Shown here piece by piece: positions 939 to 49,398 of a stretch of DNA of 64,000 bases (within the stretch, counting starts at the first letter, position 1; every line of letters starts with the position of its first letter). This DNA is from Trichoplax sp. H2 (Eukaryota). The stretch covers positions 124,001 to 188,000 of the forward strand of contig NOWV01000109.1 in NCBI GenBank assembly GCA_003344405.1, given 5' to 3'. A program made the position numbers and the translations under genes. The notes below the pieces were generated by a model. That model searched no databases. It saw nothing but the letters and a program-made list of their open reading frames with translations, and was not told where the DNA came from.

Positions 939-5145
<4,207 letters not shown>

Positions 5146-23361: not shown

Positions 23362-24104
23362 CTTGGTGAAATTGCAAACAGATTTTCTTACTACTTCCTA
23401 TGATTATTACTCTCTACTCGTAATTAACCGGCGAAGCATATTCTATTTACGAAGGCTTTAGTGTTCAGTTTCGCATTAGCTGATACAAAATGATTGACAC
23501 TAACTTCCATCTTATGCAAATTAAAGAATTATCTTATTATTATAAATATGAAATTACACCTAAATTTTTACCAGTTAAACTATTTCATTTTATAAAGACA
23601 AACTTTCCTACGCATATCCTATGTAAAGAAATTTATCAATGTTTCAAGTACTAAAATCGTATTAATAATTATGATTTTAAATTCATATATATATTTATAG
23701 ACAGATTTGAGTGTACATTATATGAGGCTATATGAAGCAATTTTATTACGTTCTATTTTATTCTATCTCAGCTACAATAAAACTTGATGGATTCGAAGCT
23801 CGAATTCAATAATTACATGATATCAATTGAACTATCTTGATGTTCCATTTTCCAATTGCAGATAGAATTAAAATACGACGAGCACGATTTCGTTTCAATT
23901 TCGCTAATGCACTGAATACAACAATGGAATAAAATAGCTTTCCGCCATCAAATAGATATTTTACTCAAGATTTCTGTAAATGATCGCATATCAAGCCTTG
24001 CTAGTCAAATTAGAACTTTGAGTTATATAATCTAGCTATTTCAAGGTCACTTTTTTTCTCAAAATTAGCCATTAGCATAAAATACAAATGAGCTTGGCGA
24101 TAGA

Positions 24105-24149
24105 TACCCTGCTATAGACACCCTGCTATCGACACCCTGCTATAGACAC
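24105..24149. repeat. Minisatellite, 3 x 14 bp (accctgctat[a/c]gac)
   Basis: Directly visible: taccctgctatagacaccctgctatcgacaccctgctatagacac. Confidence 0.9.
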
Positions 24150-24988
24150 ATATATATTATAAATTTATATTTATATTTATTTACTTATAAATTTAATCAC
24201 ATTGTATATTATTCGACAATTGCACTTTACTATATATATACTTGTCAACTATGCCTTTTATAGAAAAATCCCTTCCGCATATTATGAATAGTATGTAAAT
24301 ATGCCATTTTATCACATTAGTCATAATCTACGATTATTTTATTAGACAACCGATGTTCTATCACGCAGTTCTGTACAGCATACGCTCTATATAACTATAC
24401 TTTCAAAACGTGCAACGATTGTAATTAGCTAAAGTCATAAGAAATTTGCAGTAGAGAATTTTTCTAACCTCTGTATTGCAGTAGATTGAGATTGATCTGC
24501 AAAATTAATATCATAACCTCAATTGAAACTAAGATAATTAACAATGAAAGCTTGTTCTCGGAGATTTCGATTTGATTAAATTTGATTAAAAAACCTATCG
24601 CGGTCTTGGAACTATTACAAAAACAGGCAATGCTCCACTTGCGGCAACAGTACATGTTTTTAAATAGAATAATTCACCGTGCAAATGACAACCTTGGAGA
24701 TGATTATAAGCAACTGGTAGAGGAGAGAAATTTCAACTAAACTGATATTTATTATACTACACGTATATTTAGAGATAGATCTGATTTTCTAAGTATAAAG
24801 ACATTATATTGAATATTTCTTAAAAGATTTCAATCATTTTACTAAAGTAATACCTGCAGTTATCCAGAATCACGCCAAATATTAGTAATATTGCTTTGGT
24901 TACTTGAATTTATAAATTCCTACTGTCATCATGTTATAGTATAGAATACCATAATATAAAGTTAACCTTAATCATTACGACCCAAAAT

Positions 24989-27900
24989 CTACATTAAATC
25001 AATTCTAGTTGTTGATACTTTCAAGATTTCATGGCAACGGTTTGTTGCAGATTCAGTGAAGTCTTTAAGCTCATCCAGAGTCTGACACAATCCAAGAATT
25101 GCCATTAGTCATTTCTTTCTACGTTAAAGTAAATTAATTAATTTTTAAAATCGAGCTTGTCATCATAGCATACCTGTTTCTTGAATTTTTCATCTTCAAT
25201 TGATTTCAAATGAATTAATACATTATAATAAGCTCCCCATATTGCAGCTTCTAAGCTACGACATCCGGTCTATTAAATTAATTTTAAAATCAGTATTTTA
25301 CATTAGTAATTCATATCAGTATTTAGGTATTCATAATTGTACACTAATAATTTATTATAAATCAGATTCTACATAGAACTCAAATATAAACTCGCAAATA
25401 ATACAGCATAGTCGTGTCACGCAGTGATGTCCGTGAAGCTATATTGATTTTGTTAATAATTAAATGATTGTTTACCAGCATTAATTAGTTATCTGGTGCT
25501 TTAAGAATTGTAATAAGTAATGAAGTGTTAATTGCAATTAGAGCCTACAATGTTGTGAAATGGTATTATCGTGCTTATGTGTCACATCATTAGCCGTTGT
25601 TAATTAATTAATTGCAATTAAGGTTGTTTACAAATATTAACCTATAGTGAACTATATAATTTATTGGTAAATAATTTCTCATACTAATGTATGTAAATCT
25701 CGTATAGCGATATTACATCATTGTTTATATGTGTACCACTTATCAGCGCCGAAAACTATAAAAAGCCTAAGCAGCTCTGCTGGTAATCAGTTAGTTCCTC
25801 AGCTCTTGTTGTATAAACAGGTATCTGCTTTACCTTAATAAACTTAATGTACAATTTTTATTAGAGTAACTTGTGTGGTTGTATCTTAGAATAGATCTCC
25901 ATCACTACGAAAGAGGTATACTTATTCTAGTAGAATTGTATCGTTCGCAGTGTTACTCAAACAGTAATGAGAAGAATACCGCGACAAATCGGCTTCTTAC
26001 TACTCTACGAACCTGGACGTTGGAAATAAATCCAATATCACAGTAATGAGCTAGTTCTAGAAATGGTGTCCAACACTTTTGGCAAGTTTTCATCATGATT
26101 AAAGGCACTTCTATGGCTCCTTTTAGCTCCTTTTGCTCTGCCGCTTTTTGCCTATAGTATAATTATAGATTCAGTAGTAATTAATCTAATACAAATTGAC
26201 TTAATAGTATTTCGCTATACAGTAGATAGCTTCATTAAACCTTACTTTTCTTTCTCCTCTTCTGTTAAAGCTGGTAACTTCGAGACGGCCTAGATTTGTA
26301 ATATAATAGCAGTATATTTATTCATCTATATATGGTAAGCGATAAATTAATGTATAATTAATTCAACAACAGCGTACTCTATAACTATTGAATGCATCTT
26401 CATATTTGTCAACTAGTGGCAAAATGTCTTTATAAGCTTGGTTAAATTGAGCAATGATAGGTTTTATGGTAGATTCTAAAGATTCAAATCGTTTATTCCC
26501 GTAGCTAAGCAATCCACCCATACACCCGAGCGATGCACCCTACATGATATAGAAAATATTAGATAGTGGGATTAGAAATAGATCCACTATGATAATCTTA
26601 TCAAAATATATTTCAGAAACTGATTGCATAACACTTTAAAATTTTATAACTAGATTGTTTATACTATTGGTATCTAAAGTTGATATTAATACATTATAGC
26701 TTACAATAGCTCCGATTGCAGCAGATGCTGAGCCACTTCCTGGTGATAACGTTCTGCTACCAATACTAGTAATAAACTTATTTAAACTCGTCGATACTAA
26801 AGGACCAGCGGCATTAAGATTTGTTTTATATCTTTTAAATAAGAATAAGATAGAAATAACGGTTTCCATCATTAGTAAATTCAAAAAGAAAAGAAAGATG
26901 TCATAGGAATATTTGCTTGTACTATATTTTAATGTGTCTACATTACTCGATAATTTTCTCGCTTGGATCAAAATGATTGATAGAATTGAGTCCCAAACGA
27001 TTAATTACCTTGACAAATAATGATAAAATGTGTTTCAATTTAGTATTGTATTTGATAATAAACATGCATAATGATTAGGGACTATAATGCAATCTTATAA
27101 TTTGTAAACGACCTAAATGGTCTTCTATTGAGTTGAACGTAATTACTAATCTAATCTTTTGATCTTCATTCAGAATAAAAAGATTTTCCTTTTCGATATA
27201 ATATTCAGCGGCCTTTAGCATTGCTTCTAAAGGTAGCACCCCAACAATTTCAGAACCAGTAACGGGTAAATTCAGCTCCTATTAATCGATTTAATGTCAA
27301 TATGAAATTTATTCGTCAATACGAAGAATAAATATACATCACAACACAACAGAATTTCATCTATTTCATCTGTTATTGTTATTATATCGATAAACTGTAA
27401 AGCGAAATTTGCTAAAGTACAGTTATTTCTAGAAAATAGCACTTCTAAGATAATTATAGATGCTTTACTACAAACTACCCTAATTTTTATAATATTTCTA
27501 TAATGCATTTTCTTGACTACTGTACCTTCGCATCCTTCAATACTTCTTCGAAGACAATATGCATCGGAGATGTGCGAAAATCATATAAATTGAAAGATGC
27601 TTGAGCTATATTATGATCTTCTAGATACCATCCTATTCCATGCACTTTCTTCATTCGACCCGGCTTTCATTTGTAATATCAACCATTGATGAATATTATG
27701 ACAGGTTATGCTGATAGTTGTTGAAGTATATCAAAAAACGATTTACCTGAGTTGGACCGCGGCCTCTTTCACGTATATTGGATGCAATGCGGTGTGCCTG
27801 CTCTTTTGTTCCAATCAAATTGACATTATAAGCAATCAAGTAAAAATCGCGAGCACCTATTAGAGTTGCACCCCATTTGGGAACAAATTTAGCTGGTCCA

Positions 27901-30900
27901 TAATCAGGTCCCCAGCGAGGATCTTTCAGCTGTTACAAATTTTAATAAATAAAAACAAGGAGAATTCAATTCTACAGCTGACTGCAATGTTTTTAAATTG
28001 TATTCTAGCCTATATTTAACATAAACGATCTATGCTACTCTTAAATATAGATATCTCTACAGTCTTATCTCTTGAAAATCAAAAATATCAAGTCATGTTT
28101 AGTTATTTGTAATACTTTCAGTCTGGGCTATTTTCTATAATTATTCGCTATGATATAGACTATTGCGGTATACGCATATGTTATATCTGATTCTCCAATC
28201 TTGTTCTCTGCATGTGTTCTGTCTTTAAAAATAATATCGATACTAACGAATTTCTGCCTTAGATTCAGTAAGTTGCAATGTTCACACGGTATATATATTA
28301 GTGACTTATTGCATCAGTAAATAATTATGCCAGATAGTATTTACATGTTAAAGAATAGTTTTATTGATTTTAGTACTGAGAATATATCGTATAGGGTTAT
28401 AGTATCAGAACAGTGTGATGTATAGTAGCAGGAAAGCTATGGTAAAGTATCTGCCCACTCTATATTTGTTATCACACGAAAGGTACTACTTTCCACTATC
28501 GTGAACTGTAATATTACTATTGCTATAGCTTAACAACGATGTAATATATAATTACAGTTTAGTAAAATATCAAGCTATTTCTGCTTTACTACTAGAGGCG
28601 TCAGTTTTTACTATATCGAAAGAAGTATTACCATTTCTACATTATATTTATCCCTATTACATATATATGTTATTATTAGTTATATTACACAATATCAAGC
28701 TCCTAGACTTGCTTATGTTATTTAATACTTACACTTTTACTTATGTAATTATTCGTTAACAAGACGTATAATAAAAGTAATGTTAGTATTCGATAGGGCT
28801 ATTCTTAATTAATAGAGCTATTTTATCTTACTAGATAGATGACGCAGAAATAAGAGCAGTAATGGTTTATGGAAAAATTTGCATGTAATATGATAATCGC
28901 CCGACTAGATCATATATGCAAATCTTCAGTAGTACACTCTCAGAAGTAGCTTAAGATTAAGACGTTAAGATTATGCAACTATCTCTTTATGCATGATATT
29001 TATGGTACGTAATGTGGCTATTCATTGTGATGCTTATAAACTTAAGTTGGTAACCTTTTATATATATATGTGTATATAATTTATAGATTCTGTTATAATA
29101 AGTTGGACAGTTTTTAAACAGTTATACCGAAGGTAGATAGTCGTAGGCAATCTGGGTAGGCAAAGGAAATTATATAACAGTCATATAATAAATTGAAATT
29201 ATACAAGAAGTTAAAGTTCTTGCAGTAATACTTTAGAGATACTTTATCGCATACATTGAATAGCGATATTGTATCGTGCAATATTGCACCGTAATTTTCT
29301 AGTGTGCGTATACTTGGAAATTATGCAAGTACTTATATGTATAACTAATGGATATAAATCTCAAGGTTATGAACAACAAATTATTTATTGCTTCTTAACA
29401 GTCATTTCATCAATATCAACGAGAATGATTGCTATTTTTTTTAATAAAAGCTGTCTATTAATTGAAAGCATAAATATATTAATTTGTAATCCATAAAATA
29501 TCATACCTTTTGCTCTAAACCTTCATATTCACCAGCACGTATCTGAGGGATAAGATTTCGGTACTCACGTGTTTGTCCAAAACCATACCTAAATACTTAA
29601 AGGTAGAATGCGATTAACGTAATTAGTCATAGCTATTTTTGTTTACATCTTTTGAATTGAAGAGCTTACAACGATCTATAGACAAGATAATTAATCTACA
29701 GTATAAACTGCATATACTCGTATGTATATTATGGGCTATCGATAATGTTATTGACTATAGAATTAGAATTGCTAGACTAAACATCATCTCAAGAGATTTT
29801 AATTGAAATATTGAAGATTTGTGCATAATTTAAAACAATGCCATAACTACTTTTTATTATACAAATTATATCTCACTAAGCAACAACACTCATCTGTTGC
29901 ATTATAGAGCTAATTGCAGTAAATAAAAACAAACTATTACTGCAATGGTATTAATTTATTAGCAGCTATTTTACATCATACTTGGTACATCCAATGTCTC
30001 CGCTAGTAATTTTGAAAACTCATCGGCACATTGGACACATAAATCGATATCAGCGTTTCTTATTGGAGCAAATGGGCAAACATCCATGGCGCCAATACGA
30101 GGATGCTCTCCTTCATATTGAATGGAAAAAGAGTAAAGTAATTAAAAAACTAATGTCTCTCAAGGTGATTTATTTGGAAATTAATTTGGACGAATTAACT
30201 AGTTAACTTCTGTTATAACCGTCAATAACGAATAATATTAGTAATAGCAATTTAGTTTGTTCATGTTAGTTAAAGTAGCTGTGGTAAAGTAAATTTATCG
30301 CAAAGGCCTAGCTATTTATCATAAAAGCCATAGTGTTGATGACTCTCATTTTATTGCGTAAAATAATCTTAGATTAGTTTAATATTTTAGTAGTAAATTG
30401 GAAAGAAGTTCCGATATTCATTGCTCTTATTGTTCCTGATTGATTTCATTTTATATAATCCTTTAATTGCGTGCCAATGTATAATACACGACACATGAAT
30501 TTAATACTAATTTAGATTCGATTCAGTGGGGATTGGCACGCTGTGAATAAAAAGGATGCAAATCTGGGTGTTGTAAATAGTGTTAGATATTACGATATAT
30601 GTTATATTAGCTATTAGATAGAGCGTTAAGTATATGATTAGAATATCATCTATTTGAGTACTTATAATATGATGACTTGTATGTAGTCTTGTAATACCGT
30701 ACATGATTATATTTCAAAAGGCGGACTGATAATTTATTACATATATGTATATGTTGTAAAGTAAACGATAGCTATGATAGTTAGTAATTAGATGTATGTG
30801 TAAAATGCTACGACGCAAAAGGCAAAAGGTGTAAACTGGAATATCTATAAATACTTAGCATTTTTAATAATCAGGTTAGTTACAAATCTTACTCGCAGAG

Positions 30901-32547
30901 TAGAACTCATTGCTTAAAAACATAACACTGGGGATACTGTGCAATATGCATAGTTTGATTTTCAGTATCGTACAAATTTGTGTCAAGTGATTTTGATTTG
31001 TACACAGTATAGCAAGTGTTTAGTAATTTTGTAAAATGATTAATTAATACTAGTAGTAGGATTTTTGAATAAATGCGGTAACATCATTACTATAAGATTA
31101 GGCAAATGTGGTACATGGACTGCTTGAGGACGGACTGTTACCAGTTCAATCGCTATCAAATCATGAGAGAATATTAAGAACAATAAGGGAAACCCCACCC
31201 CTGCCGCTCATATCTCTAATGGCTGTTTATCATATTGACTTGTTTATGATGATGACGTACATTTACACAAAGCTTTGTACTTCAACTTGGGCGATTTAAG
31301 CTACTAGACTACGGATTTTCCTTTGCGAGAGAGAGATTAAAAACAGCGAAACAGATGGCGCTGGCACTAAAACGGTTTAAAATTAATATACTACAGAACC
31401 GTTAATTAATTCTTATTAAATCACTTTAAGACTCCAGTATAATTATTCTATTATTTGTATAAAGATCGGCGGTAAAAATGAATGCTAAACTAGTACAATA
31501 CTCTAGCATAAAGAGTTACATTAACAGAGCTTTCAAGTAGAGTCACAGTACCTATTCTTATATCGTACTTGATTAAAATAATTAGATCCTATACAGAACT
31601 TAGATATATACTGTATTTCTTAAACAAGCAATAAGGTAATCAATTACTGCATTGATTAGATCGGAAACTGATCTATAAAGTCACCATCAATCAATAGTAA
31701 ACGGATAATTTTGAGTTAGAGATACGTAATATACAACATACAAAATCAACAGTTTATTGTCAGCATTTCAATAAGATCATCATCTTCGCTATCTTTGTCT
31801 GATTTATGTATTTTTATCTGATATCATCTATAAAAGCCTAATTCTAATCACTATAATAGCAACATACGATAAAATACATGTAAGCTATGGGTTAGCGGCG
31901 ACTAAGGTTTTATTCTTTTCAATTCTTTTAGCAAATTTATTATTGAGATAGTTGAAATCTAATATGAGTAAAAAGCGCCTAAACTCCAATTTCTATATAG
32001 TACTATAAAAGTATTATCTGACCGTAATTAATGTATTGCCTTTGATATCTTTTACTTTTACATTTGGTAAATTAATCGTCGACATACTTTGACTTTACTT
32101 AATTGCCTCAAACTCTTTATTACTACCAATCAAATCTATAAAGTGACGTGAAATTTTTACGCCTTACAGTTAAGAAAATCGCAAAACTCTGATTTGATAA
32201 TTGTTATTCATAACCTTAAATCGGAGATAGCTTTCTACCTTTTATATTTTATTTACTTCAAAGATTAATGACCGTAAATTAAAGTTTTTACCTTTATGTT
32301 TGACCATATCAATGAATTCATGTGCTTGTAGAGCAGCATTCAAGGCCCCCTGTATAACGCTAGAAGGCGATCCTACAAATGTAAATACTGATCGATTTGT
32401 GCTTGGAGATGAGTTGAAATCGAGTAATGTGCATCCATCGGTATTTGTAATTGCATTAGCAATAGCATGGATAATTTTTTGATCTTTCCCTTCAGAGAAA
32501 TTTGGATCGCTTAACAATATTGCGCTTTCGTCGAACATCATGTCCAT
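24989..32547 (-). CDS. FTCD: Formimidoyltransferase-cyclodeaminase paralog B (intact 13-exon ORF, divergent cyclodeaminase active site)
   Basis: Start at ATG 32547, 32541 or 32538. Exon 1 ...[13 protein letters not shown]...[11 protein letters not shown]; exon 2 (~29982-30110) [13 protein letters not shown]; exon 3 IRAGEYEGL; exon 4 [20 protein letters not shown]...[65 protein letters not shown]; last exon ends TRIDLM-TAG (24989-24991). No frameshift or internal stop found. Confidence 0.92.
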
Positions 32548-34229
32548 GATCACGAATAATTGCCACAAATAGGTTATCGTCAATTTTATTTGTTGGAAAT
32601 AAAGTATATATGTAGCCTACTTCTAGTAAAAGAAAAAAATGAGATATGTAACGCCTTTACGTCTACAATAGTAATTTTCCAAGGACTTCTTAGAAATTCC
32701 CATAGAAGCACTTGAATAATCTCTCCAAATCATCTTATTGGCCATAGCAGAATGTTATTACACGTAGGCCAACTAAATACAATGAGTTTATACATTCTAC
32801 CGTGTTTGTGTACACATACATTATTCAACAGGCCGTATAAAATTAACTTATGACAGATTAATTGGTGAATGAACAATCGCATCAATACGTTATAGAAATT
32901 TACGATATTGCCCTAGGCAATCCATTCAATGATTTTGCTGTCGGTTATACACAATAATATCTCAATTTTGGGGATCTTTCGATAATATTTTTGCTTGATA
33001 ACCGTAAATTTAAAAAAATTATAGAAGTGTTTCAGTTATGAAGCACCCGTAACATGTATGACTTATAATTGGATTAAATTATCTTTATCTCACAAGCTAT
33101 CATTTCCATGACAATGCCTTCATTATTATTTTAACATAAATCATATGTATGTCCGTACTGGTCTTGGTCTGTATTGGCATCGTTATATAATTTAAAAATT
33201 ATTATACTGATATATACTCGTATGCAATGCTCTGCTATTAAAAATAATCACTATTACTATTAACATCAAATAGACAGTAAGAAATTGATCTTATTCAACC
33301 AAAATATCTTCAAGAAAATAGAGTAATTTAAATTTTAAATTTTACCACTCTAAGACGTAGCGCCTAAACTCAACCATCATCAAACATTAAAATAAAATAA
33401 AATAAAATAATGTAACGGGTTAAAACACAATGTATAGCTTTACCCTCCATCAAATCTCAAAAATAAACATAGAGTAGAACATATTAACTTCTGAGATATA
33501 TTCCTAATTCCTATTTCAGCCTCAGTACAAACTAGTAAATCAAATTAACGTTTTGAACTATACTATCTCCTTTATACTTGCTAATTGAACTTTATTGACT
33601 GTAAATTAGGGATTAAACTATCAAATTATACTTAAATTTTATATCAATAAACTAAGAAGCTGTGTATATGACAATACAAAGTTCAATCATCAGCTACTCT
33701 AGGTTCCCGTAACATTGAAGTAAAATAAATATCACAATTTCTATCGAATCTAAAGACTGCCCTAACCAATTCATCTACAGCCTACCATCCTAAAATCCAA
33801 TATTCGATAATCAGAACAAAATAGTATATCTCCTTACAAATGATACCGTATCTTGAAAACAATAATTATAAAAATTAGTCAACCTCTTGTTTAAAAATAT
33901 TTATCAAGCTTAATTAAAATTACTACTGAATCTATACAACATTAAAATAATTTTTTGTGTGTTTGTGTAGATATAATATATGCACTTTATGGTACATGGC
34001 ACCATAAATTACAGGAAATTGATCCCCATTCGCAGACATGTTTCAAACTCACATCTATTTTTAATTTCATAATTTATGGTTCTTCCAATGATGTAATCTT
34101 GTTTGACTCTAGCAAACTTTATTAAATAAAATATTGGCTAGCTGTAATTGTGGCCTCACTCTTTGAAATTCTCTTTAAAAATTTATCATCGAGATTGTTG
34201 ATATCTAATATGAGTAGAAAGTGATCAAG

Positions 34230-34393
34230 CTTTCAGAATCAGCATTAAGTGTAGATGGTCTTCGTCGACTTTAAAACGGCGAAAAACCTCCCATTCTCCG
34301 CTTAGCCATGAAAAGGTTTTAGCTTTTTATCAAAGTTCTTTCGTCGTTTTAAAGTCGACGAGGACTATCTACGTTTAATACTGATTCCGAAGG
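34230..34393. repeat. Long inverted repeat / hairpin (~57 bp arms, ~47 nt spacer) between the FTCD paralogs; MITE-like or structured RNA
   Basis: Left arm 34232-34287 ttcagaatcagcattaagtgtagatggtcttcgtcgactttaaaacggcgaaaaac. Reverse complement of the right arm (34335-34391) is ttcggaatcagtattaaacgtagatagtcctcgtcgactttaaaacgacgaaagaac. Confidence 0.9.
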
Positions 34394-35218
34394 TATGCAT
34401 AGTGTTCCCCTTACACTCTCCGTTTGGCCGCGATGGTATTACAAAAAGGTTGGCTTTTACTTTACGTTATAGATTACTATTAAGGTTTATGCGAATATTA
34501 TATTACCATGATATTACCATCCGGCGACTACTAAAGATATTACATAGTAATTGCCATGCATTGGTATGAGAAAATGTTAGTATAATACAAGTATCTGACA
34601 AAATAAGTATCTTATTCTGATGTATGTGGTTTGAAATATTGCTTGTAGCAAAGTAATAAAATCTTGTATAGTGTGCAAATCAATGTAAAGTTTATTAGGA
34701 AAACTATAACGCAACAAGATATGGTAGATTTATAGTTAATATAAATCTGTAAGCGTAAATCAGTGTATGTAATCGTAAGGTAAGACCGTATGAGCACAGA
34801 AATGGATGTAGAATGTAACAGGAGGATTAACATAAAATTATACCAGTCTTGAAGAAATACAAATTTGTTAATTATTTTTTTCTTTCAGCTATATCAAGAA
34901 TTAAAATTGTAATTACCGTCTATTACTTGCTATGGTGAAGTCACCAATAAGCAGTATAATATTTACGTATAGCAGATTGTATACGCTGTTAGGCGACCTT
35001 AATGCTAGGTATTAATAATGGACTAGATACATTCAAATTCTTAGGATACGAGTATCGATCTAATAAGCTACTACATTTCCTTTACTGATTCGTTATCCAA
35101 ATTACGATGACTCAATGATTAGTTTAAAACTGATATTAATAAGATTGGAATCGACTAAATAGTATTTAAAGTTAATTTTTTGTTTAGTTCACAGTAGTCA
35201 TTCAATACTTTGAACCTT

Positions 35219-38200
35219 TTAAGATCCACTGTCAACACTAAATTCAGTTCTAGCACCCAAAACTTTTAAGATTTGTTGACAGTTATATTGAGCCGATTCA
35301 ACTCTTGTATTTATTTCCTGTAAAGTCTAAGAGTCAATTCAGCATAAATTAATACAATTAATCGTATTACATGTAAAATGAAATTTTGATGTTATCAGCT
35401 ATAGCCGACTAAATTTAAGTTTCATTAAGAATAGCTATTATTATACCTCTTTTTTAAATTCCTCATCGGTAACTGATTTCAGATTGATTACTACATTATA
35501 ATAAGCACCCCATATCCCAGCTTCTAGGCTACGACTACCTGTCTGTAGTTAATAAATATTAAAGGTTGAGCAGAGCAATCATCAGAATTAGCTGTTAACG
35601 TAATTCCAACTACTTTCCGTCAACAAATTTAAACAAAAATTTTATGGCTTTTCTTCAAAAACGTTATTGTTAATACTCTATATTAATTACCTGAACGTCA
35701 GAAATTACCCTGACATTGCAACAGTGGGCTAATTCGAGAAATGGGTTCCAGCACTGATCGCTTATTCTCATGATTGTTAGTGGTATTTCTATAGCCTTCA
35801 AGAGTTCGGTTTGCATGGCTTTCTCTCGTCTATAGTAGTTTGGATGAAAAATGCAATTAAGTTTAAATCATTACTTCATAACATTATGGATATCAGGATT
35901 TATAACATTCTGTAAAATTATACCTATCTTTCTCTTCCTGCGTAGAACTCGGTAACTTAATAGCACCCTGATGGTAAAGTAAAGAAGGCGCATTTTAACC
36001 ACCCATTAGCAGATCTGATATTATTAACTCTCACCGACAAATAATACACCATTTCAAAATTTTTAAATATCGAAATCTTACTTACAATGTAGCCATTAAA
36101 GGCATCAGTATCTTTATCAATCAATGGTAACAGATCCTTGTATATGTCATTAAATTGAGATATCAATCGTCTCATTGTTGAATCCAAAGATTCAAATTTT
36201 TTACTTCCGTAAGTTAAAAATCCACCCATGCAACCAAGTGCTGCACCCTAACAAAACAGAATTATCATCATTTGCACCAGTTTATAGTGACTAAAGCAGC
36301 ACGTTGAAAATAAAATTTTCTTGCATTATAATCATATTATTGAAAGGGGTTTATTTAATGCTACTTACTATAGCTGCAACGGCAGCGGAAGCTGATCCTC
36401 CCCCAGGAGATGAGGTTCTACTACCGATACTAGTAATGAAGTTGCCTAAACTTCCGGATAGTAAAGGACCGGTAGTATTTTTCTTGATAATGTATCTAAA
36501 GTGGCGTTTATATAATTTGTTAACGCTCAGTGTACATATATAGGACTCGTAAGCTCTATCACAATATTAACTCAGTTTATATGTAAAAGTATAATTACTC
36601 GATAATTTTCTCTTTCGGATTGAAGCAACCAACAGAGTTGAGTCCTAAGCGTTCAATTACCTTCGTATTAAAACAATGCATTAAACAACGTTAATTAATG
36701 CATGTACCGAGTAGCAAAGAAAGAACTCATGGCAATACCATAAACGGTAAGAACCGACAATCATGGAGCAACCTTAACAATGCGAACCAATCTTACCAAT
36801 CTAATTTTTTGATCTTCATTAATTACGAAAAGATTTTCCTTTTCGATGTAATACGTAGCTGCATCTAGCATCGCTTGCAGTGGTACTAGACCGACAACTT
36901 GTGACCCAACGACAGGTAGGCTTAACTCCTAGAGTATAAGTGTTTTAGGTAAGATAGGTGTACTATGTATACAACAGGATACACATTGCATACTACCTTT
37001 ATTATCTACACTGATGACTGCTGACAATTGTATGATTATGGATTGCTTAGTGATCTCAGAAAGCTTATGCAACAGTTGCTGCTTATATTTTAATACAAGG
37101 AATCGATAACTTACTTAACAGATGCAATCAATACAGTCATATTGATGAGCTTACCTTGGCATCTTTCAGCACCTCTTCGTATACAATGTGCAGAGGGGAT
37201 TCATTACTGTCAGAAATATTGGTCGATACTTGAGCTATATTAGCTTCTTCTGTATACCAGCCTACGGCTTGTACTTTCTTCAACCGCCCAGGCTAGCAAA
37301 TAGAATATTATTATTAAAAAGGGTATTTATAAGGAAAATTTTCACTTTGCGGTATCAATTTTATTCATAACGCGATAGTAAAAATACACAAGAAAGAACC
37401 TTAAGGGGACCACGACCACTTTCTCGAATATTTAAAGCAATACGATGAGCTTGTTCTTTCGTGCTAATTAAATTGACATTATAAGCGATCAAGAAATCAC
37501 GAGCACCAACAATCGTCGCACCCCATATCGGAACAAACTCGGCCGGTCCAAAGTCAGGCTTCCAGCGTGGATCTGCCAACTATGCCAGTTTGAGAAGAGC
37601 AATTAAATATTTTGATAATTAAATTAAGTAAAGAATAAACTGTCATTCAATTGGTTACTAGGGATGCTATCATCATATTATAATCACTTTAACAATTTAT
37701 TTCATACGACGTCATATTTCTCGATGCATTTAACTTACTCTCAGACAGTCTTTACATTAAATCAGTAATCTATGATGGCATTAAAATATTATTTGATAAT
37801 GCTCGTTTATTAAGAAATACCTTTTCTTTCAAACCTTCATATTCGCCATTACGTATTTGAGGCACGGAAGATCGATAATCAGTCGAAGATGCAAAGCCGT
37901 ATAGGAATACTACAATAGAGACAAGAAAATTATTCTAATACGCGTATGTTGGAAAGAGTATACCTCATTCAAGACTCGAGCTTGATCAGAAGGCTAAATC
38001 TTTTGCAATACTGTACAAGTTATGGACAAATCCCAAAACTGGATATTGCACGAAAGGATGTATAAATCCTACGAAATTATTACCCTTACGAATATCATTC
38101 TATGCAATGGAAAGAGCTGTTTCGCGTGATATAATGTAACATCGATTTTATTGTAGTGCTCTCCATGGACTTGGTATAACTGCAATCGACTACGATTTAC

Positions 38201-40013
38201 ACTTTGTTTTGAAGGTAATGCTGTGTAATGAAGACTACATTCATTAATGCGTACTCTCCTTAACCGATATTATGATACTACTGCGTTTACTATTTTTATA
38301 GAATTATTGATAATAGTAACTTGCTCTGAACGCAAATTTATACATAATACTAATCGCACAGCTAAGATAAGGTAGTCAATCAAAATCACAATTACAGTGG
38401 AGGCTTGGCGAAAATAGATCGATTAAATATTATATTATATAGGGAATATATTAAAAGCCTGTGGATATTCGACTCAAGGGAATAATGTAATGTACAGTAC
38501 AATTGACGTTCAACTAATTCAAGCAAGACCATCAATGCTTTATTCCGACGCATTAATTAATCAGATGGAAACCATACGACCATTTCTATTTACTATATTG
38601 AATTTTGCAGACAGTAAGCCAATAAAATGAAGGAAAAAAAATGATGTTGTAATTTTTTGTATTTTCTAAAAGTATGATATCGTCGTACTACCGTACATTT
38701 GTAAAATAGAAATAGCAGTCAAATGCAACATGATCACTTGCCATTAACATGTTAATAATGTAAACAGGAGTTGCTAGTATTTAACGCAAGAAGCAATCCC
38801 AAACTACGTCTTCTACTACATTACATAGCATCTAAAATACGTGTACAATAATGGTTGTGCAGTTTTCGTATTGTATAAGCGCTCTAGTTATCAGTAGATT
38901 GATGTATCCATTTTTTATATGGATGTCGTGTACTGACCTGGCACTTTCAGTTTATCAGCAAGTAAACTACCAAATTCTTTAGCACATTGAACGCATACAT
39001 CCATGGATACATTTTGAACAGGAACAAATGGGCATACGTCAAGTGAGCCTAAACGGGGATGTTCTCCTTTAAAATAGAAATAATCGATCATAAGCCCATC
39101 TTTAGTATTGCTTTACATGATGTGATTGCAATCTGTGTGCATCAAGCACTCCATTATTAACATCGACTACTATTATAATCTTTTTACATGATACATATTT
39201 AATTAATAGATTATCCTCCAGCAGTGACAACAAACACGGGTGAGATAGAATATTCGCCATCGTCTGTAAGGCCTTTCTACTTGTTCTTATACTCTATTCG
39301 TAATCCTATTTATTATGGTATTCAACGGTAGCCTATCCTAAAAAATACTATTATGATTCTTGGCGCAGCCTATCTACAGTGCTGTAGTACTATTCATTAA
39401 CATTGTCGTCTCTGTTAACTTCTTGCTTGGTTGTACAAATAGACAGCCAATGCAGTTAGCCAAAATCATACTGTCCAATCATCACTGATGCTAACTCGTC
39501 GATAGCGTATCTTGTAACGTTTTTTCACCATTGCATCTAGTCTTTCCTCCATCTGCCCATCCAGATCGACTAGAAAACTCATCAACACTGATGCAAACGG
39601 CACTTCGGATCATATCGGATATACAGCACAAATACGTTTCTAAACGATATGATCCGGCACTTTAAAATGGATGCCAATCACTGTCCTTAGCCACAAAGAT
39701 GGCTAATGATTATTCCATGTACGCTAGAGGCAGTGAATCAATCCAGCAAAGATATCCATTCTGTACCTTTATGATGTTTCATATCGATTAATGAGAAAGC
39801 TTGCAAGGCTGCATTAAAGGCACCCTGGACAACATTGCTTGGAGATCCAACAAAAGTGTAAACAGTCCGATTGGTACTTGTAGAGCAATCGATATCCAAC
39901 AACGAGCAGCCATCCGTACTTGAAATAGCTTTGGCTATAGCATCGATAACGGATTTATCAGTTCCTTCGGAGAAATTGGGTACACATTCAATGATGGCTG
40001 TCTCTGCAGACAT
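35219..40013 (-). CDS. FTCD: Formimidoyltransferase-cyclodeaminase paralog A (canonical, 13 exons)
   Basis: Exon 1 40013-39767 [17 protein letters not shown]...[11 protein letters not shown]; exon 2 39066-38938 [52 protein letters not shown] (second Asp at 36110-36112); [20 protein letters not shown]; ends FSVDSGS-TAA (35219-35221). Intron positions are the same as in paralog B. Confidence 0.95.
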
Positions 40014-40540
40014 GGTGATTGAGAAAGGTAAAAAGAGCAATCTTGCCTACCAGCAAGAAGATTGGTCAAAGCGGATCTGCTGATGTTATTGATAGTGAAA
40101 TGAGCACGGATTGTTATTATTTTTATGATGATTTGAAATGGCTATCTAGGGTGCCATGTAGTAGTGAATATTCTATACGATACTCTTATGATTGCATTAC
40201 GTAATGTAAAGACAAGTCACGACGAGAGGAAAAAAACATGGCATGATGTCGTGGCACTATGCTGACATTATTTTTGCTTGCAATTTGTAGTCTCTACTTA
40301 GTATGATGAAAAATGAACCATAGAGTAGACTACTCGCCTAACAGTGTAACAAGGACTGCTTAGACAACGGCTTCATCGTGTGTAAAATAGATGTCATGCT
40401 TAGCCATTTTCTCTTGTAATGTCCATCTGTCTGTGTCTGAAGAAGAAATCAAAACAACGTTCCGATTAATTCCGATCGGGCAAAAGCTCCAAATTAATGA
40501 CTGTAAATGAATAAGAATATCAATATGATTTGATAAATAG

Positions 40541-45050: not shown

Positions 45051-46402
45051 GGCTGATTTTGTGAGTGTCCTATCCTTGTTATGGTGCGTTCATAGAGCTG
45101 AGTTGGCTCCAACTTCTTCCTCTACTGTATGCGACAGTACGCCCGCTTGCCAGTCCTTTTAATCACTTCCGCCGACAGACAGACTGACGGGCCGAGTTCT
45201 GGATAGGCCAAGATTCCCTTGAACTCTACAGTACCCCTGTCTAGAGTCTACAGTACTGTAGAGTAGACTACTGTAGCATATACCGTACAGTATGTTTTAT
45301 GTAGTGTATGGCTCATTGTTGATGACAAGATTCCCTTGAACTCTACAGTACCCCTGTCTAAAGTCTAGAGTAGACTACTGTAGCATATACCGTATGTTTT
45401 ATGTAGTGTATGGCTCAGTGTTGATGACTGTAATGGTATCCAGGGATTTTCGACAAGTCCCGTTGTACTGTATTCCATAGCCGAAATTGAACAGCAAGAA
45501 AGTACTTTTTCCTCGCTTTCTTTGGACTGTATTCAATCCACTTCCAGCATTGATAGTGGTATATGTTATACTGTCGACTGTGCTGTACAGTTCTACAGTA
45601 TCCAGTACTACAGTCAAGAAAAATATTGAAAATGCCATTGCGTCATCGCCACAATGCCATGTTACNNNNNNNNNNNNNNNNNNNNTGAAAATGAATGCTG
45701 ATCATCATTAATGTAGCAAGAAAGAGCGTTTTGGAAATAGCCATGGCTGATTTTGTGAGTGTCCTATCCTTGTTATGGTGCGTTTATAGAGCTGAGTTGG
45801 CTCCAACTTCTTCCTCTACTGTATGCGACAGTACGCCCGCTTGCCAGTCGTTTTAATCACTTTCGTCGACAGACAGACGGATAGACCGAGTTCTGGATAG
45901 GCCAAGATTTCCTTGAACTCTACCCCTGTCTAGAGTCTAGAGTAGACTACTGTAGCATATACCGTATGTTTTATGTAGTGACTTTACGTACTAATATTAG
46001 TAACTTTAACACCCTTTATGTCGATTTGAATTACATATTTAAATAAAGCATCTTATTTGCAATAGACTGATACCAAATTTGTCTAATTTGGTGTTGAAAT
46101 TGTGTTTTTATATAACTTCAATCATCGTCAATTTTTTATGAGACACCCTGTATGGCTCAGTGTTGATGACTGTAATGGTATCCAGGGATTTTCGACAAGT
46201 CCCGTTGTATTCCATAGCCGAAATTGAACAGCAAGAAAGTACTTTTTCCTCGCTTCCTTTGGACTGTATTCAATCCACTTCCAGCATTGATAGTGGTATA
46301 TGTTATACTGTCGACTGTGCTGTACAGTTCTACAGTATCCAGTACTACAGTCAAGAAAAATATTGAAAATGCCATTGCGTCATCGCCACAATGCCATGTT
46401 AC
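44992..46402. other. Gap-flanking direct duplication (44992-45665 vs 45686-46402), probably two uncollapsed haplotypes across the N-gap 45666-45685
   Basis: Sequence right of the gap restarts at 'tgaaaatgaatgctgatc' (=44992) and runs to 'gccatgttac' (=45665), with SNPs and indels. It includes a second copy of most of the paralog-1 signal exon. Confidence 0.85.
45981..46150 (-). mobile_element. 170 bp insertion present in only one duplicate copy; one end resembles a Tc1/mariner-type terminus
   Basis: Absent from 'ttttatgtagtgtatggctcagtg' in copy 1. On the minus strand its end reads TA|CAGGGTGTCTCATAAAAAATTG. No matching second TIR is seen. Confidence 0.45.
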
Positions 46403-47099: not shown

Positions 47100-49398
47100 A
47101 TGGCGTCCAAATTATTCATTGCTGCTCTTATCTGCCTGTTCAATGTCTATCAGGTTAGAACTAGATCCATCTTGGTCTCCATCTTGGTCTCCATCTTGAT
47201 TCCATCTTGATTTGAGACGGAGATAAACTAGTGTAGCCAGTTGTAATTGACACCATCAAGTCGTAGTAGACTTCTCAAGTATGTCCATGATGGAACACAA
47301 CCAGTTAGTTGACTGAACTGATCCAATCGATGACTAGATTGAAGATTCACAACAACGATAGCTTGCATGCACCAACCCAATGCATAAAATAACCACTTCA
47401 GGATAGACAATGTGTAATGGATGATGAGTTCATATCGCGATCGAACATGAAGTAGCTGCTGCAGCAGATCCAATTCCGAATACAGTATTTCTGAGTTGGT
47501 CTCAAATTTCATGCTTACAACAGACGCCTTGACAGTCATGTTAAACTCTACAGTACTGTACAGTACTATAGAGCAAAGTCGGTAGCTGCTGCAGATCCAA
47601 TTCCGAATACAGTATTTCTGAGTTGGTCTCAAATTTCATGCTTACAACAGACGCCTTGACAGTCATGTTAAACTCTACAGTACAGTACTATAGAGTAAAG
47701 TCGGTTTCCATAGCCACCGTTCGTCTTAAACTTAAATAAACTTATCGTGGGGAATATTTCAGTAGTCTATCACTTATCCTACTAGCATGTTATATCGATA
47801 CAGTATGAACTGGATGGAATAAACCTTGTAATGAACGTTATGATTGATCTTGTTTCCATAGTCACCCTTCGTCTTCAACTAAAATAAACTTAACACTGGG
47901 AATATTTTAGTACTCCATTGCTTATCCTACTAGAATGTTATATCGATACAGTGTGAACTGGATGGAATAAACCTTGTAATGAACGTTACGATTGATCTTG
48001 TTTCCATAGTCACCCTTCGTCTTCAACTAAAATAAACTTAACACAGGGAATATTTTAGTACTCATTGCTTATTCTACTAGAATGTTATATCGATACAGTA
48101 TGAACTGGATGGAATAAACCTTGTATTGAGCGTTATGATTGTTCTTGTCGTAATAAATAATGCTGTCGTATTTTCACTCAATTTTAGGTATCTGCTCAAA
48201 TGGATCCATGGTAAGAATGACTCCTGCAATTTGCTAATGAGCAGTTGGATGGGAAAATGAATACACTAAAATGTCCACTTCTCTGAAGTCATATATCGTA
48301 TTCCGTAGAAAACTTGACATGTTTAGTGTATTCATCTTTCCCAATTAGATTCATGATATTTGACTTATGTTAATTAGTCTAGTTTTCACATGACAGGCTG
48401 ACAGACAACGCTTGTAGTACTTATATCACTATCACTGTGTTCGACCTCAGTACTGTGTTAGTGCCCTACAACATGGCTGTAGTACTGTACATTTTAAATA
48501 ATTATATGTTAGAGCATGCATTACTATTAGTCTCCTCTAAAATGGCGGCAGTACTGTATACCTGAAATGATTGCATGTTACAGTATGTATTAGTGTCCTA
48601 GAAATTAAATGACCGCAGTAATGCACGTACCTTTGAAATGATTCGATGTTGAAACATGTATTAGTGTCCTACAAAATGATTGCAGTACTGTACATTTGAA
48701 ATGATTCGATGTTAGAGCATGGTAAGGATGTAACGATCTTTTCCAAAAATAATTCATATCAGTATCCCGTTAAAGAACGGGTGCGTTGAATACTAATACA
48801 GAATTCCTATTAGCATGCGTTGGCTACAACTTGTTGACAGTCGATTAATAAATAAAGCTATTGTGAGTGCTGATCGAACTTTTCATACCTACTATAGCCA
48901 ATGTTTGATGCAAGAATATTGCTGTGGTGGAACCAGCTGCTGCTTCGCCTTCTATAAAGTCTGGTATTTCTGGTAAGTTGTAAATTAATTAAACATCAAT
49001 GCTGGTCAGCCAATGGAGTCGGTGTATGTGAAGTGACCCCCTGATGTTATCCAATTAATTATTGAATACTTAAACATGGCAGATAGTTTCATTTTCCTTT
49101 ATCTTTCTGTGGCATAGTTTGATTTATCTATTAATTATGTGAAGCTAGCTCTTACTAATCCGTAAAGACTTCTTGCTGTTACAAATGAACGCTATTCTAT
49201 CCCTCTACTAGGGCTTCCATTGGTTTCCTCATACTCGCCTTTGCTGCTATGATTACTTGGTTGAGATATCGCCGTATGCAGTTGGAACGAACACATTACA
49301 TCATTCTCCAAGGAGAAGCTGCACCCGGTGTCATCGAAAAGTTAGGGCTTTCGTCCAACTCCAACACTCAATTTTGCCCACCACCATACAAATCTTAA
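47100..49398 (+). CDS. Small single-pass membrane protein, WBP1/VOPP1/TMEM92 (Shisa-like six-cysteine) family, with PPPY motif; paralog 2
   Basis: Exons 47100-47153 (MASKLFIAALICLFNVYQ), 48188-48210 (VSAQMDP), 48898-48972 (C-QCLMQEYCCGGTSCCFAFYKVWYF-W), 49212-49398 (ASIGFLILAFAAMITWLRYRR...FCPPPYKS-TAA). Same exon/phase layout as paralog 1. Missed by the ORF track. Confidence 0.87.
47167..48150. repeat. Cluster of young tandem repeats in intron 1 of paralog 2: 4 x 12 bp, 2 x ~130 bp, 3 x ~148 bp
   Basis: (ccatcttg[g/a]t[c/t]t)x4 at ~47168-47212; 'gtagctgctgcag...agatccaattccgaatacag...aaagtcg' at 47452 and 47582; 'gtttccatag.cacc.ttcgtctt...gaactggatggaataaaccttgta' at ~47704, 47852 and 48000. 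Confidence 0.9.
48250..48343. repeat. Short inverted repeat (~26 bp arms) in intron 2 of paralog 2
   Basis: Left gggaaaatgaatacactaaaatgtc (48251-48275); reverse complement of 48316-48342 is gggaaagatgaatacactaaacatgtc. Confidence 0.8.
48445..48722. repeat. Degenerate ~60-70 bp tandem repeat (4-5 copies) in intron 2 of paralog 2
   Basis: Recurring 'ttagtgtccta.aaaatg...gcagtactgtaca.ttgaaatgatt.gatgtt.gagcatg'. Confidence 0.75.

What the first reader, a model, noticed from the sequence alone, without database searches (positions are those of the whole stretch)
24989..32547. Intact FTCD paralog with a specifically altered cyclodeaminase active site (candidate half-pseudoenzyme)
Seen: paralog B keeps all 13 exons, splice sites and reading frame, and keeps the formiminotransferase EHPR His. 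It differs from neighbouring paralog A at five cyclodeaminase signature positions: PGGG->PGSG (26735-26737), LIDKD->LVDKY (GAT->TAT at 26402-26404), CN..->CD.. (26037-26039), SD->SN (26019-26021) and NVxINL->NVLIHL (25210-25212). Established: in mammalian FTCD His82 is the FT catalytic residue and Asp412 (second D of VDAD) is required for cyclodeaminase activity; numbering is from my recollection of the human sequence. FTCD is an octamer that channels substrate and also has a Golgi/cytoskeleton-binding role. Inference: loss concentrated at CD catalytic motifs in an otherwise preserved ORF suggests a monofunctional transferase, a regulatory subunit of mixed A/B octamers, or a structural or new-substrate protein, rather than random decay.
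Basis: partly seen in the sequence, partly recalled or inferred. Interest (0 to 1): 0.8.

Follow-up and report, generated by a model that had tools for sequence, protein, structure and literature searches.

The report
FTCD duplicate with altered cyclodeaminase site
A placozoan (Trichoplax) carries two neighbouring copies of the histidine/folate enzyme FTCD, and the faster-evolving copy is intact, transcribed and still under selection, yet has replaced four of the seven most conserved residues of its second (cyclodeaminase) domain, so it probably no longer does that second reaction in the usual way.

Summary
Paralog B (24989-32547, minus strand) is an intact 13-exon gene. Its spliced product is letter for letter the NCBI protein 'Formimidoyltransferase-cyclodeaminase [Trichoplax sp. 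H2]' (P0001, 549 aa).

- **Conservation:** against 195 full-length homologs, B changed 4 of the 7 cyclodeaminase (CD) columns conserved at 97.5% or more: G362S, D418Y (rat D412), D485N and N507H. It changed 0 of 38 equally conserved transferase (FT) columns (Fisher p = 2e-4). Neighbour A changed none of the seven.
- **Origin:** A and B are sister genes (100/100 support), a placozoan-specific tandem duplication. B's branch is 3.3 times longer than A's.
- **Selection:** silent sites are saturated and dN/dS is about 0.1-0.18 in both domains.
- **Expression:** spliced B transcripts occur in runs of three studies and carry the derived codons.

B is therefore neither decay nor a sequencing error. 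Loss of cyclodeaminase activity is inferred, not shown. The catalytic role of D412 is recalled only. A rare Glu419 sits next to Tyr418, and the FT domain also carries unusual changes. No ortholog from another placozoan genus was found. I rate it a new variant of a known kind, of moderate interest.

The parts
24989..32547 (-). Paralog B gene, start codon to stop codon: 13 exons, 549 codons plus TAG
   Evidence: P0001 threads exactly. All introns are GT..AG.
32292..32547 (-). B exon 1 (256 nt). Includes the derived Leu12-Ser13-Asp14 codons at 32506-32514.
   Evidence: RNA contigs X13 record 2 and X9 record 21 cover 32291-32639 and 32291-32569.
29982..30110 (-). B exon 2 (129 nt). His88 codon at 30103-30105, equivalent to rat H82 in the EHPR motif.
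29507..29595 (-). B exon 3 (89 nt). Arg131 (29588-29590) and Gly135 (29576-29578) depart from columns conserved at 94% and 90%.
27747..27929 (-). B exon 4 (183 nt, 3 nt longer than A's). Inserted Tyr188 codon at 27840-27842.
   Evidence: Joint 27663/27747 is seen in X6, X9 and X13.
27526..27663 (-). B exon 5 (138 nt)
   Evidence: Joints on both sides are seen in X6, X9 and X13.
27147..27278 (-). B exon 6 (132 nt)
26947..27008 (-). B exon 7 (62 nt, linker)
26705..26831 (-). B exon 8 (127 nt). Ser362 codon at 26735-26737 (PGGG becomes PGSG).
26378..26539 (-). B exon 9 (162 nt). Tyr418 codon at 26402-26404 (rat D412 position) and the rare Glu419 codon at 26399-26401.
   Evidence: The exon 9/10 joint in X6 was confirmed from loose ends.
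26246..26289 (-). B exon 10 (44 nt). Val428 codon at 26284-26286.
26013..26151 (-). B exon 11 (139 nt). Gln442 (26148-26150), Asp479 (26037-26039) and Asn485 (26019-26021).
25174..25269 (-). B exon 12 (96 nt). His507 codon at 25210-25212.
24992..25081 (-). B exon 13 (90 nt of coding sequence), followed by TAG at 24989-24991
24500..24988 (-). B 3' untranslated region. It reaches at least the edge of the stretch that was laid.
   Evidence: RNA contigs X6 record 14, X9 record 20 and X13 record 1 run continuously over 24500/24546-25081.
35219..40013 (-). Paralog A gene: 13 exons, 550 codons plus TAA. It is canonical at all five positions: Gly358 (36399-36401), Asp414 (36110-36112), Asn475 (35715-35717), Asp481 (35697-35699), Asn503 (35483-35485).
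   Evidence: Model built. All 12 introns appear as RNA joints, including intron 1 (39066/39767). Codons.

Best explanation
Paralog B is a real, transcribed and selectively maintained gene. It is the fast-evolving member of a placozoan-specific tandem duplication of FTCD.

It keeps the whole three-domain fold and every top-conserved formiminotransferase residue, including the catalytic His. In the cyclodeaminase domain it has replaced four of the seven most conserved residues: the middle Gly of PGGG, the Asp aligned with rat D412, the Asp of the S-D motif, and the Asn of NV-I-N-L.

The most likely consequence (inferred, not shown) is that B no longer carries out the canonical 5-formimino-THF to 5,10-methenyl-THF reaction. 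On this reading B acts as a transferase subunit. Its cyclodeaminase domain is kept as a folded module for ring assembly and/or binding of polyglutamylated folate. The deaminase step is left to paralog A, either in separate rings or in mixed A/B rings.

Shown: gene structure, substitutions, their statistical concentration, sister relationship, rate asymmetry, purifying selection on average, transcription and splicing.

Inferred: loss of deaminase activity, retention of transferase activity, the scaffold role, and any A/B mixing.
For: 1. Exact 13-exon gene with canonical splice sites.
2. B changed 4 of 7 CD columns conserved at 97.5% or more, against 0 of 38 FT columns (p = 0.00023). A changed 0 of 7.
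3. The same four residues are present in the distant solved family members FchA 7vg4 and T. maritima cyclodeaminase 1o5h, in the alignments to A. They are therefore family-wide.
4. Among 197 rows, 187 have no change at the seven columns. The only others with 3 or more changes are three bacterial fusions whose whole CD domain is divergent (identity to consensus 0.15-0.24) and mis-modelled goat and polar-bear isoforms. B has 0.49 identity over the rest of the domain; A has 0.53.
5. Pfam FTCD_C scores 166.3 bits in B against 203.8 in A. The FT C-subdomain model scores 212.3 against 213.7.
6. A and B are sister genes with 100/100 support. Terminal branches are 0.59 (B) and 0.18 (A). By domain: FT 0.35 against 0.24, CD 0.53 against 0.15.
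7. dN is 0.24-0.25 and dS 1.4-2.2 overall. dN/dS is 0.12-0.15 in FT and 0.10-0.18 in CD. Four-fold sites are identical at 52 of 149.
8. A neutral open frame survives 0.05 substitutions per site in 0.8% of 4000 simulations.
9. Spliced B contigs are present in X6 (RNA on record), X9 and X13, from three studies and two organism labels. No difference is listed at the five codons.
10. The AlphaFold2 model of B has mean pLDDT 93.9 and superposes on rat FTCD 1tt9 with TM 0.91. The domain is still a well-formed fold.
Against: - There is no biochemical evidence of any kind.
- The catalytic requirement for D412 is recalled only; the paper is not held, and no held paper states it.
- Glu419, beside Tyr418, is a rare residue there: 2 of 195 have E and 186 have T, A or S. 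It could supply a carboxylate.
- In the model, Asn485 and His507 lie 22 residues apart on one helix (480-508). The four positions therefore cannot all line one small pocket of one chain, and the site geometry was not established here.
- B's FT domain also departs from 94-96% conserved columns and has the Tyr188 insertion. Transferase competence is assumed, not shown.
- No B ortholog from another placozoan genus was found. Long-term conservation of the derived residues is untested; they are seen only in two labels about 1-2% apart.
- Among the differences listed between strains, B has 3 nonsynonymous and 3 synonymous changes, against 2 and 4 in A. The counts are too small to show present-day constraint, and 55 differences were not shown.
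Confidence: 0.5

Rival explanations
1. The cyclodeaminase pocket of B has been rebuilt for a different folate reaction or substrate (neofunctionalisation), not merely switched off. Tyr418, Glu419, Asp479, Asn485 and His507 would then be a coordinated new set of polar and acid-base residues. The unusual FT changes would belong to the same change of specificity, for example formyl instead of formimino transfer.
For: - All replacements are polar-for-polar or add potential acid-base groups (Tyr, His, Glu, Asp) rather than random hydrophobics.
- Glu419 is a rare, adjacent second change.
- The CD domain is still under constraint, with dN/dS 0.10-0.18.
- The family already hosts another chemistry on this fold: FchA, a methenyl-THF cyclohydrolase, 7vg4.
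- Plant FT-only homologs lost formiminotransferase activity and gained a 5-methyl-THF to MeFox activity (PMC12622545, passages read).
- The FT domain of FTCD is described as also transferring formyl from N-formyl-glutamate (PMC6443193, Fig. 4 legend).
Against: - No positive evidence for any new activity.
- Constraint on the domain is equally explained by a scaffold role.
- No cross-species data show that the new residues themselves are conserved.
Confidence: 0.2
2. B is still an ordinary bifunctional FTCD. The changed residues are dispensable or compensated, for example by Glu419 standing in for the missing Asp.
For: - Glu419 lies directly next to Tyr418.
- Three of 195 homologs have Glu instead of Asp at column 418.
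- The fold is intact.
- The essential role of D412 could not be verified from any held source.
Against: - Four independent positions that are 97.9-98.5% conserved in 195 homologs, and kept in Thermotoga and Methylobacterium family members, are all changed in one protein.
- The three homologs with Glu at column 418 are globally divergent bacterial fusions.
- A residue at i+1 on a helix points in a different direction.
Confidence: 0.15
3. B lost its function recently and is at the start of decay. It is an expressed gene on its way to becoming a pseudogene.
For: - B evolves faster than A in both domains.
- The FT domain also carries odd changes.
- The listed strain differences are 3 nonsynonymous to 3 synonymous.
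- A neutral phase shorter than about 0.02 substitutions per site cannot be excluded: the frame is still open in 13% of simulations.
Against: - Open frame of 549 codons, 24 canonical splice-site dinucleotides, and correct splicing in three studies.
- Average dN/dS well below 1 with saturated dS.
- None of the 38 top-conserved FT columns is changed.
Confidence: 0.07
4. Sequencing or assembly artefact at the key codons.
For: None found.
Against: - The spliced product is identical to an independently deposited NCBI protein.
- Contigs of X6 and X9 cover the exons carrying the five codons. No difference is listed there, although differences of equal contig depth elsewhere in the same contigs are listed.
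- Caveat: the difference table is cut, with 55 rows not shown.
Confidence: 0.01

Closest known systems
Mammalian bifunctional FTCD (rat 1tt9/2pfd; pig FT domain 1qd1)
   Same: - Same three Pfam domains in the same order.
- phmmer E = 1.3e-172 over B 14-534.
- The model superposes on 1tt9 with TM 0.91-0.92.
- The FT His is kept.
   Different: - B has Ser, Tyr, Asn and His where rat has the middle G of PGGG, D412, the D of S-D and the N of I-N-L.
- It also has the Tyr188 insertion and an altered first strand, L-S-D for E-C-V.
- Octamer formation and Golgi/vimentin binding were not tested. That role is known to me only from the listing and abstract start of PMC2198822.
Paralog A in the same window (canonical placozoan FTCD)
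   Same: - Sister gene with 100/100 support.
- 65% identical.
- Identical exon lengths in 10 of 13 exons.
- Same strand, about 2.7 kb away.
   Different: - A keeps all 21 CD columns conserved at 90% or more and all five named residues.
- A's terminal branch is 0.18 against 0.59 for B.
Bacterial FT proteins fused to a degenerate CD-like domain (P0215 Planctomycetota, P0174 candidate division KSB1, P0178 and P0181 unnamed)
   Same: An FT domain is joined to a C-terminal FTCD_C-like domain that lacks several of the same top-conserved residues.
   Different: In those proteins the whole C-terminal domain is divergent, with identity to consensus 0.15-0.24. B's domain is near normal (0.49, against 0.53 in A) and has targeted replacements. 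They are also unrelated lineages.
Plant glutamate formiminotransferase-like proteins (GFT)
   Same: A member of the FTCD family that has left the canonical two-step reaction. Plant GFTs showed no formiminotransferase activity and instead convert 5-methyl-THF to MeFox (PMC12622545, passages).
   Different: Plant GFT has only the FT domain and is monomeric in vitro (same passages). B keeps a full-length CD domain.
FchA methenyl-THF cyclohydrolase (7vg4) and T. maritima cyclodeaminase (1o5h)
   Same: Same helical CD fold: TM to target 0.95 and 0.89-0.90.
   Different: These are stand-alone proteins. Both keep the Gly, Asp, Asp and Asn that B has lost.

Membership tests
Bifunctional formimidoyltransferase-cyclodeaminase (FTCD) | Domain order FTCD_N, FTCD, FTCD_C | tested here: met
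   PF07837 scores 206.3 bits, PF02971 212.3 bits and PF04961 166.3 bits, all far above their cut-offs.
Bifunctional formimidoyltransferase-cyclodeaminase (FTCD) | Overall fold as in solved FTCD | tested here: met
   The AF2 model has mean pLDDT 93.9. Foldseek to 1tt9_A gives E = 3e-53, TM 0.91/0.92 and rmsd 2.5 over 540 columns. The prediction used an alignment of canonical homologs, so it leans towards the family fold.
Bifunctional formimidoyltransferase-cyclodeaminase (FTCD) | Transferase catalytic His (rat H82; role recalled, not read here) | tested here: met
   His88 of B aligns with rat H82. The column has H in 194 of 195 homologs.
Bifunctional formimidoyltransferase-cyclodeaminase (FTCD) | Cyclodeaminase Asp (rat D412; role recalled, not read here) | tested here: not met
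   Tyr418 (TAT, 26402-26404) aligns with D412. The column has D in 192 and E in 3 of 195 homologs.
Bifunctional formimidoyltransferase-cyclodeaminase (FTCD) | Other family-wide CD residues: middle Gly of PGGG, Asp of S-D, Asn of I-N-L | tested here: not met
   B has G362S, D485N and N507H. Each column is conserved in 191 of 195 homologs and kept in 7vg4 and 1o5h.
Bifunctional formimidoyltransferase-cyclodeaminase (FTCD) | Homo-octameric ring and substrate channelling | not tested
   The complex job (CD domain of A with CD domain of B) was never accepted because the queue was full.
Bifunctional formimidoyltransferase-cyclodeaminase (FTCD) | Both enzyme activities | not testable with these tools
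   This needs recombinant protein assays.
Pseudoenzyme / dead-domain paralog | Homolog of an active enzyme that lacks residues conserved throughout the active family | tested here: met
   4 of the 7 top-conserved CD columns are changed, while the rest of the domain is near normal.
Pseudoenzyme / dead-domain paralog | Retained by selection and expressed | tested here: met
   dN/dS is 0.09-0.18 with saturated dS. ORF-survival simulation. Spliced contigs in three studies. Constraint is an average since the duplication, not shown for the present.
Pseudoenzyme / dead-domain paralog | Activity actually absent | not testable with these tools
   No assay is available, and Glu419 may compensate.
Unprocessed pseudogene | Frame disruption, lost splice sites, no transcript, omega near 1 | tested here: not met
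   The frame is open and all splice sites are GT..AG. The gene is transcribed and spliced. Omega is well below 1.

The most novel reading that the evidence does not exclude
B is not a half-dead enzyme but a new one. After the placozoan duplication, its cyclodeaminase pocket was refitted with Tyr418/Glu419, Asp479, Asn485 and His507. Its transferase domain was retuned through the changed first strand, Arg131 and the Tyr188 insertion. Together these would give placozoans a folate one-carbon reaction or substrate (for example a formyl-specific route) that no characterised FTCD performs.
Probability: 0.15. Interest if true: 0.7.

Novelty: new variant of a known kind. Interest (0 to 1): 0.45.

Why it matters
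FTCD couples two reactions in one octameric ring and channels the intermediate between them. How far the cyclodeaminase domain serves assembly and folate binding, rather than catalysis, has been studied only with engineered fragments.

This paralog is natural, selectively maintained and keeps the fold while lacking the conserved cyclodeaminase residues. It sits beside a canonical copy in one of the simplest animals. That gives a ready-made pair for testing three things:
- what the domain does beyond catalysis;
- whether mixed rings form;
- how a bifunctional enzyme subdivides after duplication.

It also corrects public annotation. B is named as an ordinary FTCD, and the model for A lacks its first exon.

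The general phenomenon, a duplicate with a dead or changed catalytic domain, is common. The surprise is therefore moderate unless a new activity is found.

Tried and rejected
- **Whole genome of the window:** not held, so other FTCD copies elsewhere in the genome could not be sought.
- **Mao et al. 2004 (EMBO J, PMC514939):** not held under its DOI or PMC id. I saw only its reference entry and the PDB title.
- **Literature searches:** nothing was returned for 'cyclodeaminase' + 'D412A', 'pseudoenzyme' + 'cyclodeaminase' or 'formiminotetrahydrofolate cyclodeaminase' + 'conserved residues'. 'Trichoplax' + 'formiminotransferase' and 'FTCD' + 'placozoa' returned one unrelated mite genome paper. 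The FchA structure search found nothing on the FTCD_C fold.
- **Orthologs of B in other placozoans:** the full-length search listed only P0001 and P0023 as placozoan among the best 120. The search for short fragments with the CD region returned 1 protein among 259 candidates, a 33%-identical cyclodeaminase. The database may simply not hold those species, so this says nothing on their presence.
- **YN00 dN/dS:** failed with a math domain error, consistent with saturation.
- **Complex prediction (CD domain of A with CD domain of B):** No result exists.
- **Contig depth in read laying:** depth is higher for A than for B contigs in X6, X9 and X13. The tool states that contig depth cannot rank genes, so I draw no conclusion on relative expression.
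- **Low cover between the genes (33044-34111) in the RNA runs:** not used as evidence of separate transcripts.
- **Three-dimensional clustering of the changed residues:** could not be measured, because no coordinates are available to scripts.


Full report
**What is there.** The window is AT-rich eukaryotic DNA (GC 0.29-0.40). An exon-sized ORF of the finding hit the NCBI protein 'Formimidoyltransferase-cyclodeaminase [Trichoplax sp. H2]' (P0001, 549 aa).

Threading P0001 onto the minus strand gives an exact match in 13 exons, 32547..24992 (1647 nt), with TAG at 24991-24989. All 12 introns are GT..AG. A second copy, paralog A, lies upstream on the same strand.

The NCBI model for A (P0023, 476 aa) starts inside intron 1. 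With exon 1 (40013-39767) added, A is a 13-exon, 550-aa gene ending at 35222 with a TAA stop. All its introns are GT..AG. Ten of its 13 exon lengths are identical to B's.

**The observation.** A has Gly, Asp, Asn, Asp and Asn at the same columns. The phmmer alignment to rat FTCD (1tt9) puts His88 of B on rat H82 and Tyr418 on rat D412.

**Is it more than chance?**
- I aligned B, A and all 201 fetched proteins of 500-620 aa. I kept the 195 that fill at least 85% of both domains.
- Seven CD columns are conserved at 97.5% or more: P360, G362, G363, L376, D418, D485 and N507. B changed four of them; A changed none.
- None of the 38 equally conserved FT columns is changed in B (Fisher p = 0.00023). 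At 95% or more the counts are 4 of 12 against 2 of 51 (p = 0.0099). At 90% or more they are 6 of 21 against 7 of 77 (p = 0.030).
- N479 is conserved in 169 of 195 homologs.
- The Gly, Asp, Asp and Asn are also present in the distant solved members FchA (7vg4) and the T. maritima cyclodeaminase (1o5h).
- Of 197 rows, 187 have no change at the seven columns. The others with 3 or more changes fall into two groups. One is bacterial FT fusions with a wholly divergent C-terminal domain: Planctomycetota plus two unnamed, with identity to consensus 0.15-0.24 (a candidate division KSB1 fusion is similar but has two changes). The other is goat and polar-bear isoform models with replaced segments. B's domain is otherwise near normal, at 0.49 against 0.53 for A.
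- Pfam agrees. FTCD_C scores 166.3 bits in B against 203.8 in A, while the FT C-subdomain scores 212.3 against 213.7.

**Against 'otherwise preserved'.** B also departs from FT columns conserved at 94-96% (E12L, C13S, V14D, L131R), at 90% (A135G) and at 92% (L279V). It carries an inserted Tyr188 that 194 of 195 homologs lack. In the model this insertion lies in a loop before strand 190-196. Twenty-nine columns conserved at 80% or more differ in B, 17 in FT and 12 in CD.

**Origin and rate.**
- I built a careful IQ-TREE tree (LG+C20+F+G4) of 38 rows: A, B and 36 named animal, Dictyostelium and bacterial sequences. These were chosen from the 201; 165 mostly unnamed or redundant rows were left out.
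- A and B are sister genes at 100/100 support. Terminal branches are 0.59 (B) and 0.18 (A), and the shared stem is 0.54.
- Quick LG+G4 trees by domain give FT 0.35 against 0.24 and CD 0.53 against 0.15.
- Counts polarised on the family consensus show B-specific changes exceeding A-specific ones in both domains. At 50% consensus or more the counts are FT 24 against 10 of 232 columns and CD 18 against 3 of 96.
- This is therefore a placozoan-specific tandem duplication. A stayed canonical and B diverged, mostly in the CD domain. It is not reciprocal subfunctionalisation.

**Selection.**
- Between A and B, dN is 0.24-0.25 and dS 1.4-2.2. dN/dS is 0.12-0.17 overall, 0.12-0.15 in FT and 0.10-0.18 in CD. 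YN00 failed.
- Four-fold degenerate sites are identical at 52 of 149, about what base composition alone gives (my arithmetic from the composition).
- B holds about three quarters of the protein divergence, so its own omega is higher than the pairwise value but still well below 1. This is an inference.
- In simulations using intron base composition, an open 549-codon frame survives 0.02, 0.05 and 0.1 neutral substitutions per site in 12.9%, 0.8% and 0.03% of 4000 trials. Indels and splice sites were ignored.
- Only a very short recent neutral phase remains possible.

**Expression and sequence errors.**
- One search found 17 runs holding part of the stretch, from 6 studies. I laid four of them (X6, X5, X9, X13; four studies, two organism labels) on 24500-40500. 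All are Logan contigs, so levels cannot be read.
- B joints 27277/27525 and 27663/27747 appear in X6 (RNA on record), X9 and X13. Eleven further joints were not shown.
- X13 record 2 (1132 nt) and X9 record 21 (956 nt) link exon 1 to exons 4-6. The unlisted record stretch has the length of exons 2 and 3 together.
- X9 record 20 (1503 nt) has 582 nt on exon 13 plus the 3' UTR, and a remaining 630 nt. That equals exons 7-12 (62+127+162+44+139+96; my arithmetic). Its depth of 24.3 reappears at 26451 and 26789.
- X6 loose ends at 26289 and 26377 match the exon 9/10 junction.
- No difference is listed at any of the five codons, while differences of equal depth in the same contigs are listed. The table is cut, with 55 rows hidden.
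- Listed coding differences in B are D43N and V54I (X6, X5), A402V (X6), and synonymous changes at T344 (X6, X5), T34 and P15 (X13). In A they are T229I and K20Q plus four synonymous changes.
- X5 shows even cover without joints and behaves like DNA.
- All 12 A introns appear as joints, including 39066/39767. This supports my exon 1 and shows that P0023 is truncated.

**Structure.** With a 55-row alignment, AlphaFold2 gives mean pLDDT 93.9 and pTM 0.85. Foldseek puts the model on 1tt9_A at TM 0.91/0.92. Ser362 caps the N-terminus of helix 362-384, and Tyr418 is in helix 414-429. Asp479 is in the turn before helix 480-508, and Asn485 and His507 are at opposite ends of that helix. The four residues therefore cannot share one small pocket within one chain. 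Whether they meet across the CD dimer could not be measured here.

**Mechanism.** Established knowledge, partly read in PMC6443193 passages: FT moves the formimino group from formiminoglutamate to THF (or formyl from N-formylglutamate), CD releases ammonia to give 5,10-methenyl-THF, and the enzyme is a homo-octamer. The catalytic roles of H82 and D412 are recalled and could not be read.

My best reading (0.5) is that B keeps transferase function but lacks canonical deaminase chemistry, with the CD domain retained for assembly or folate binding. The rivals are:
- a refitted pocket with a new activity (0.2; precedents are FchA on the same fold and the plant GFT change of activity, PMC12622545 passages);
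- retained activity through compensation, notably by the rare Glu419 (0.15);
- early decay (0.07);
- artefact (0.01).

**Novelty.** No held paper links FTCD with placozoans or with pseudoenzymes. The gene is publicly annotated as an ordinary FTCD. A duplicate with a catalytically altered domain is a common evolutionary outcome. I therefore rate this a new variant of a known kind, with interest 0.45. It would rise substantially if a new activity or obligate mixed rings were shown.

Noticed in passing
window 38938-40013 (-): The public model of paralog A (P0023, 476 aa) lacks exon 1 and begins at a Met inside intron 1, adding 8 spurious residues. RNA joints 39066/39767 in X6 and X13 support a 13-exon, 550-aa gene starting at 40013.
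   Followed up: yes
tree (P0109, P0100, P0115, P0118): Full-length FT+CD proteins of Ignavibacteria, Kapabacteria and Bacteroidia are 51-55% identical to B, as close as animal FTCDs. Dictyostelium FTCD groups inside the bacterial set (97/93) rather than with animals. This hints at horizontal transfer in one direction or the other.
   Followed up: no
The stem leading to both placozoan copies is long, especially in the CD domain (0.53 against 0.16 in FT). The placozoan cyclodeaminase domain had therefore already diverged before the duplication.
   Followed up: partly
window 45666-45685 and 50560-50579: Two runs of 20 N, which are assembly gaps.
   Followed up: no
window 4355-4612 (+) and 47228-47635 (-): Exon-sized ORFs with sub-threshold Pfam matches. 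The first matches Nramp at 24 bits (cut-off 29.8). The second matches the inward-rectifier K+ channel transmembrane domain at 19.2 bits (cut-off 22.7). They are probably exons of neighbouring genes.
   Followed up: partly
window 24100-24149: Tandem repeat of period 14 with 3.6 copies, downstream of the laid part of B's 3' UTR.
   Followed up: no
window 35829-35927 (A intron 10): X9 and X13 report the joint as 35831/35927 with one extra letter, whereas X6 reports the canonical 35829/35924. This is probably an alignment effect of a nearby variant beside the 44-nt exon 10.
   Followed up: no
window 27039 (X6 loose end): A 24-nt loose end in X6 is the reverse complement of the B exon 9/10 junction sequence. 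This suggests a chimeric or fold-back contig.
   Followed up: partly
window 28238-29305 and 30374-31975 (B introns 3 and 1): B's introns 1 (2181 nt), 3 (1577 nt) and 11 (743 nt) are much longer than A's counterparts (700, 241 and 148 nt). This accounts for the larger gene. Their content was not examined.
   Followed up: no
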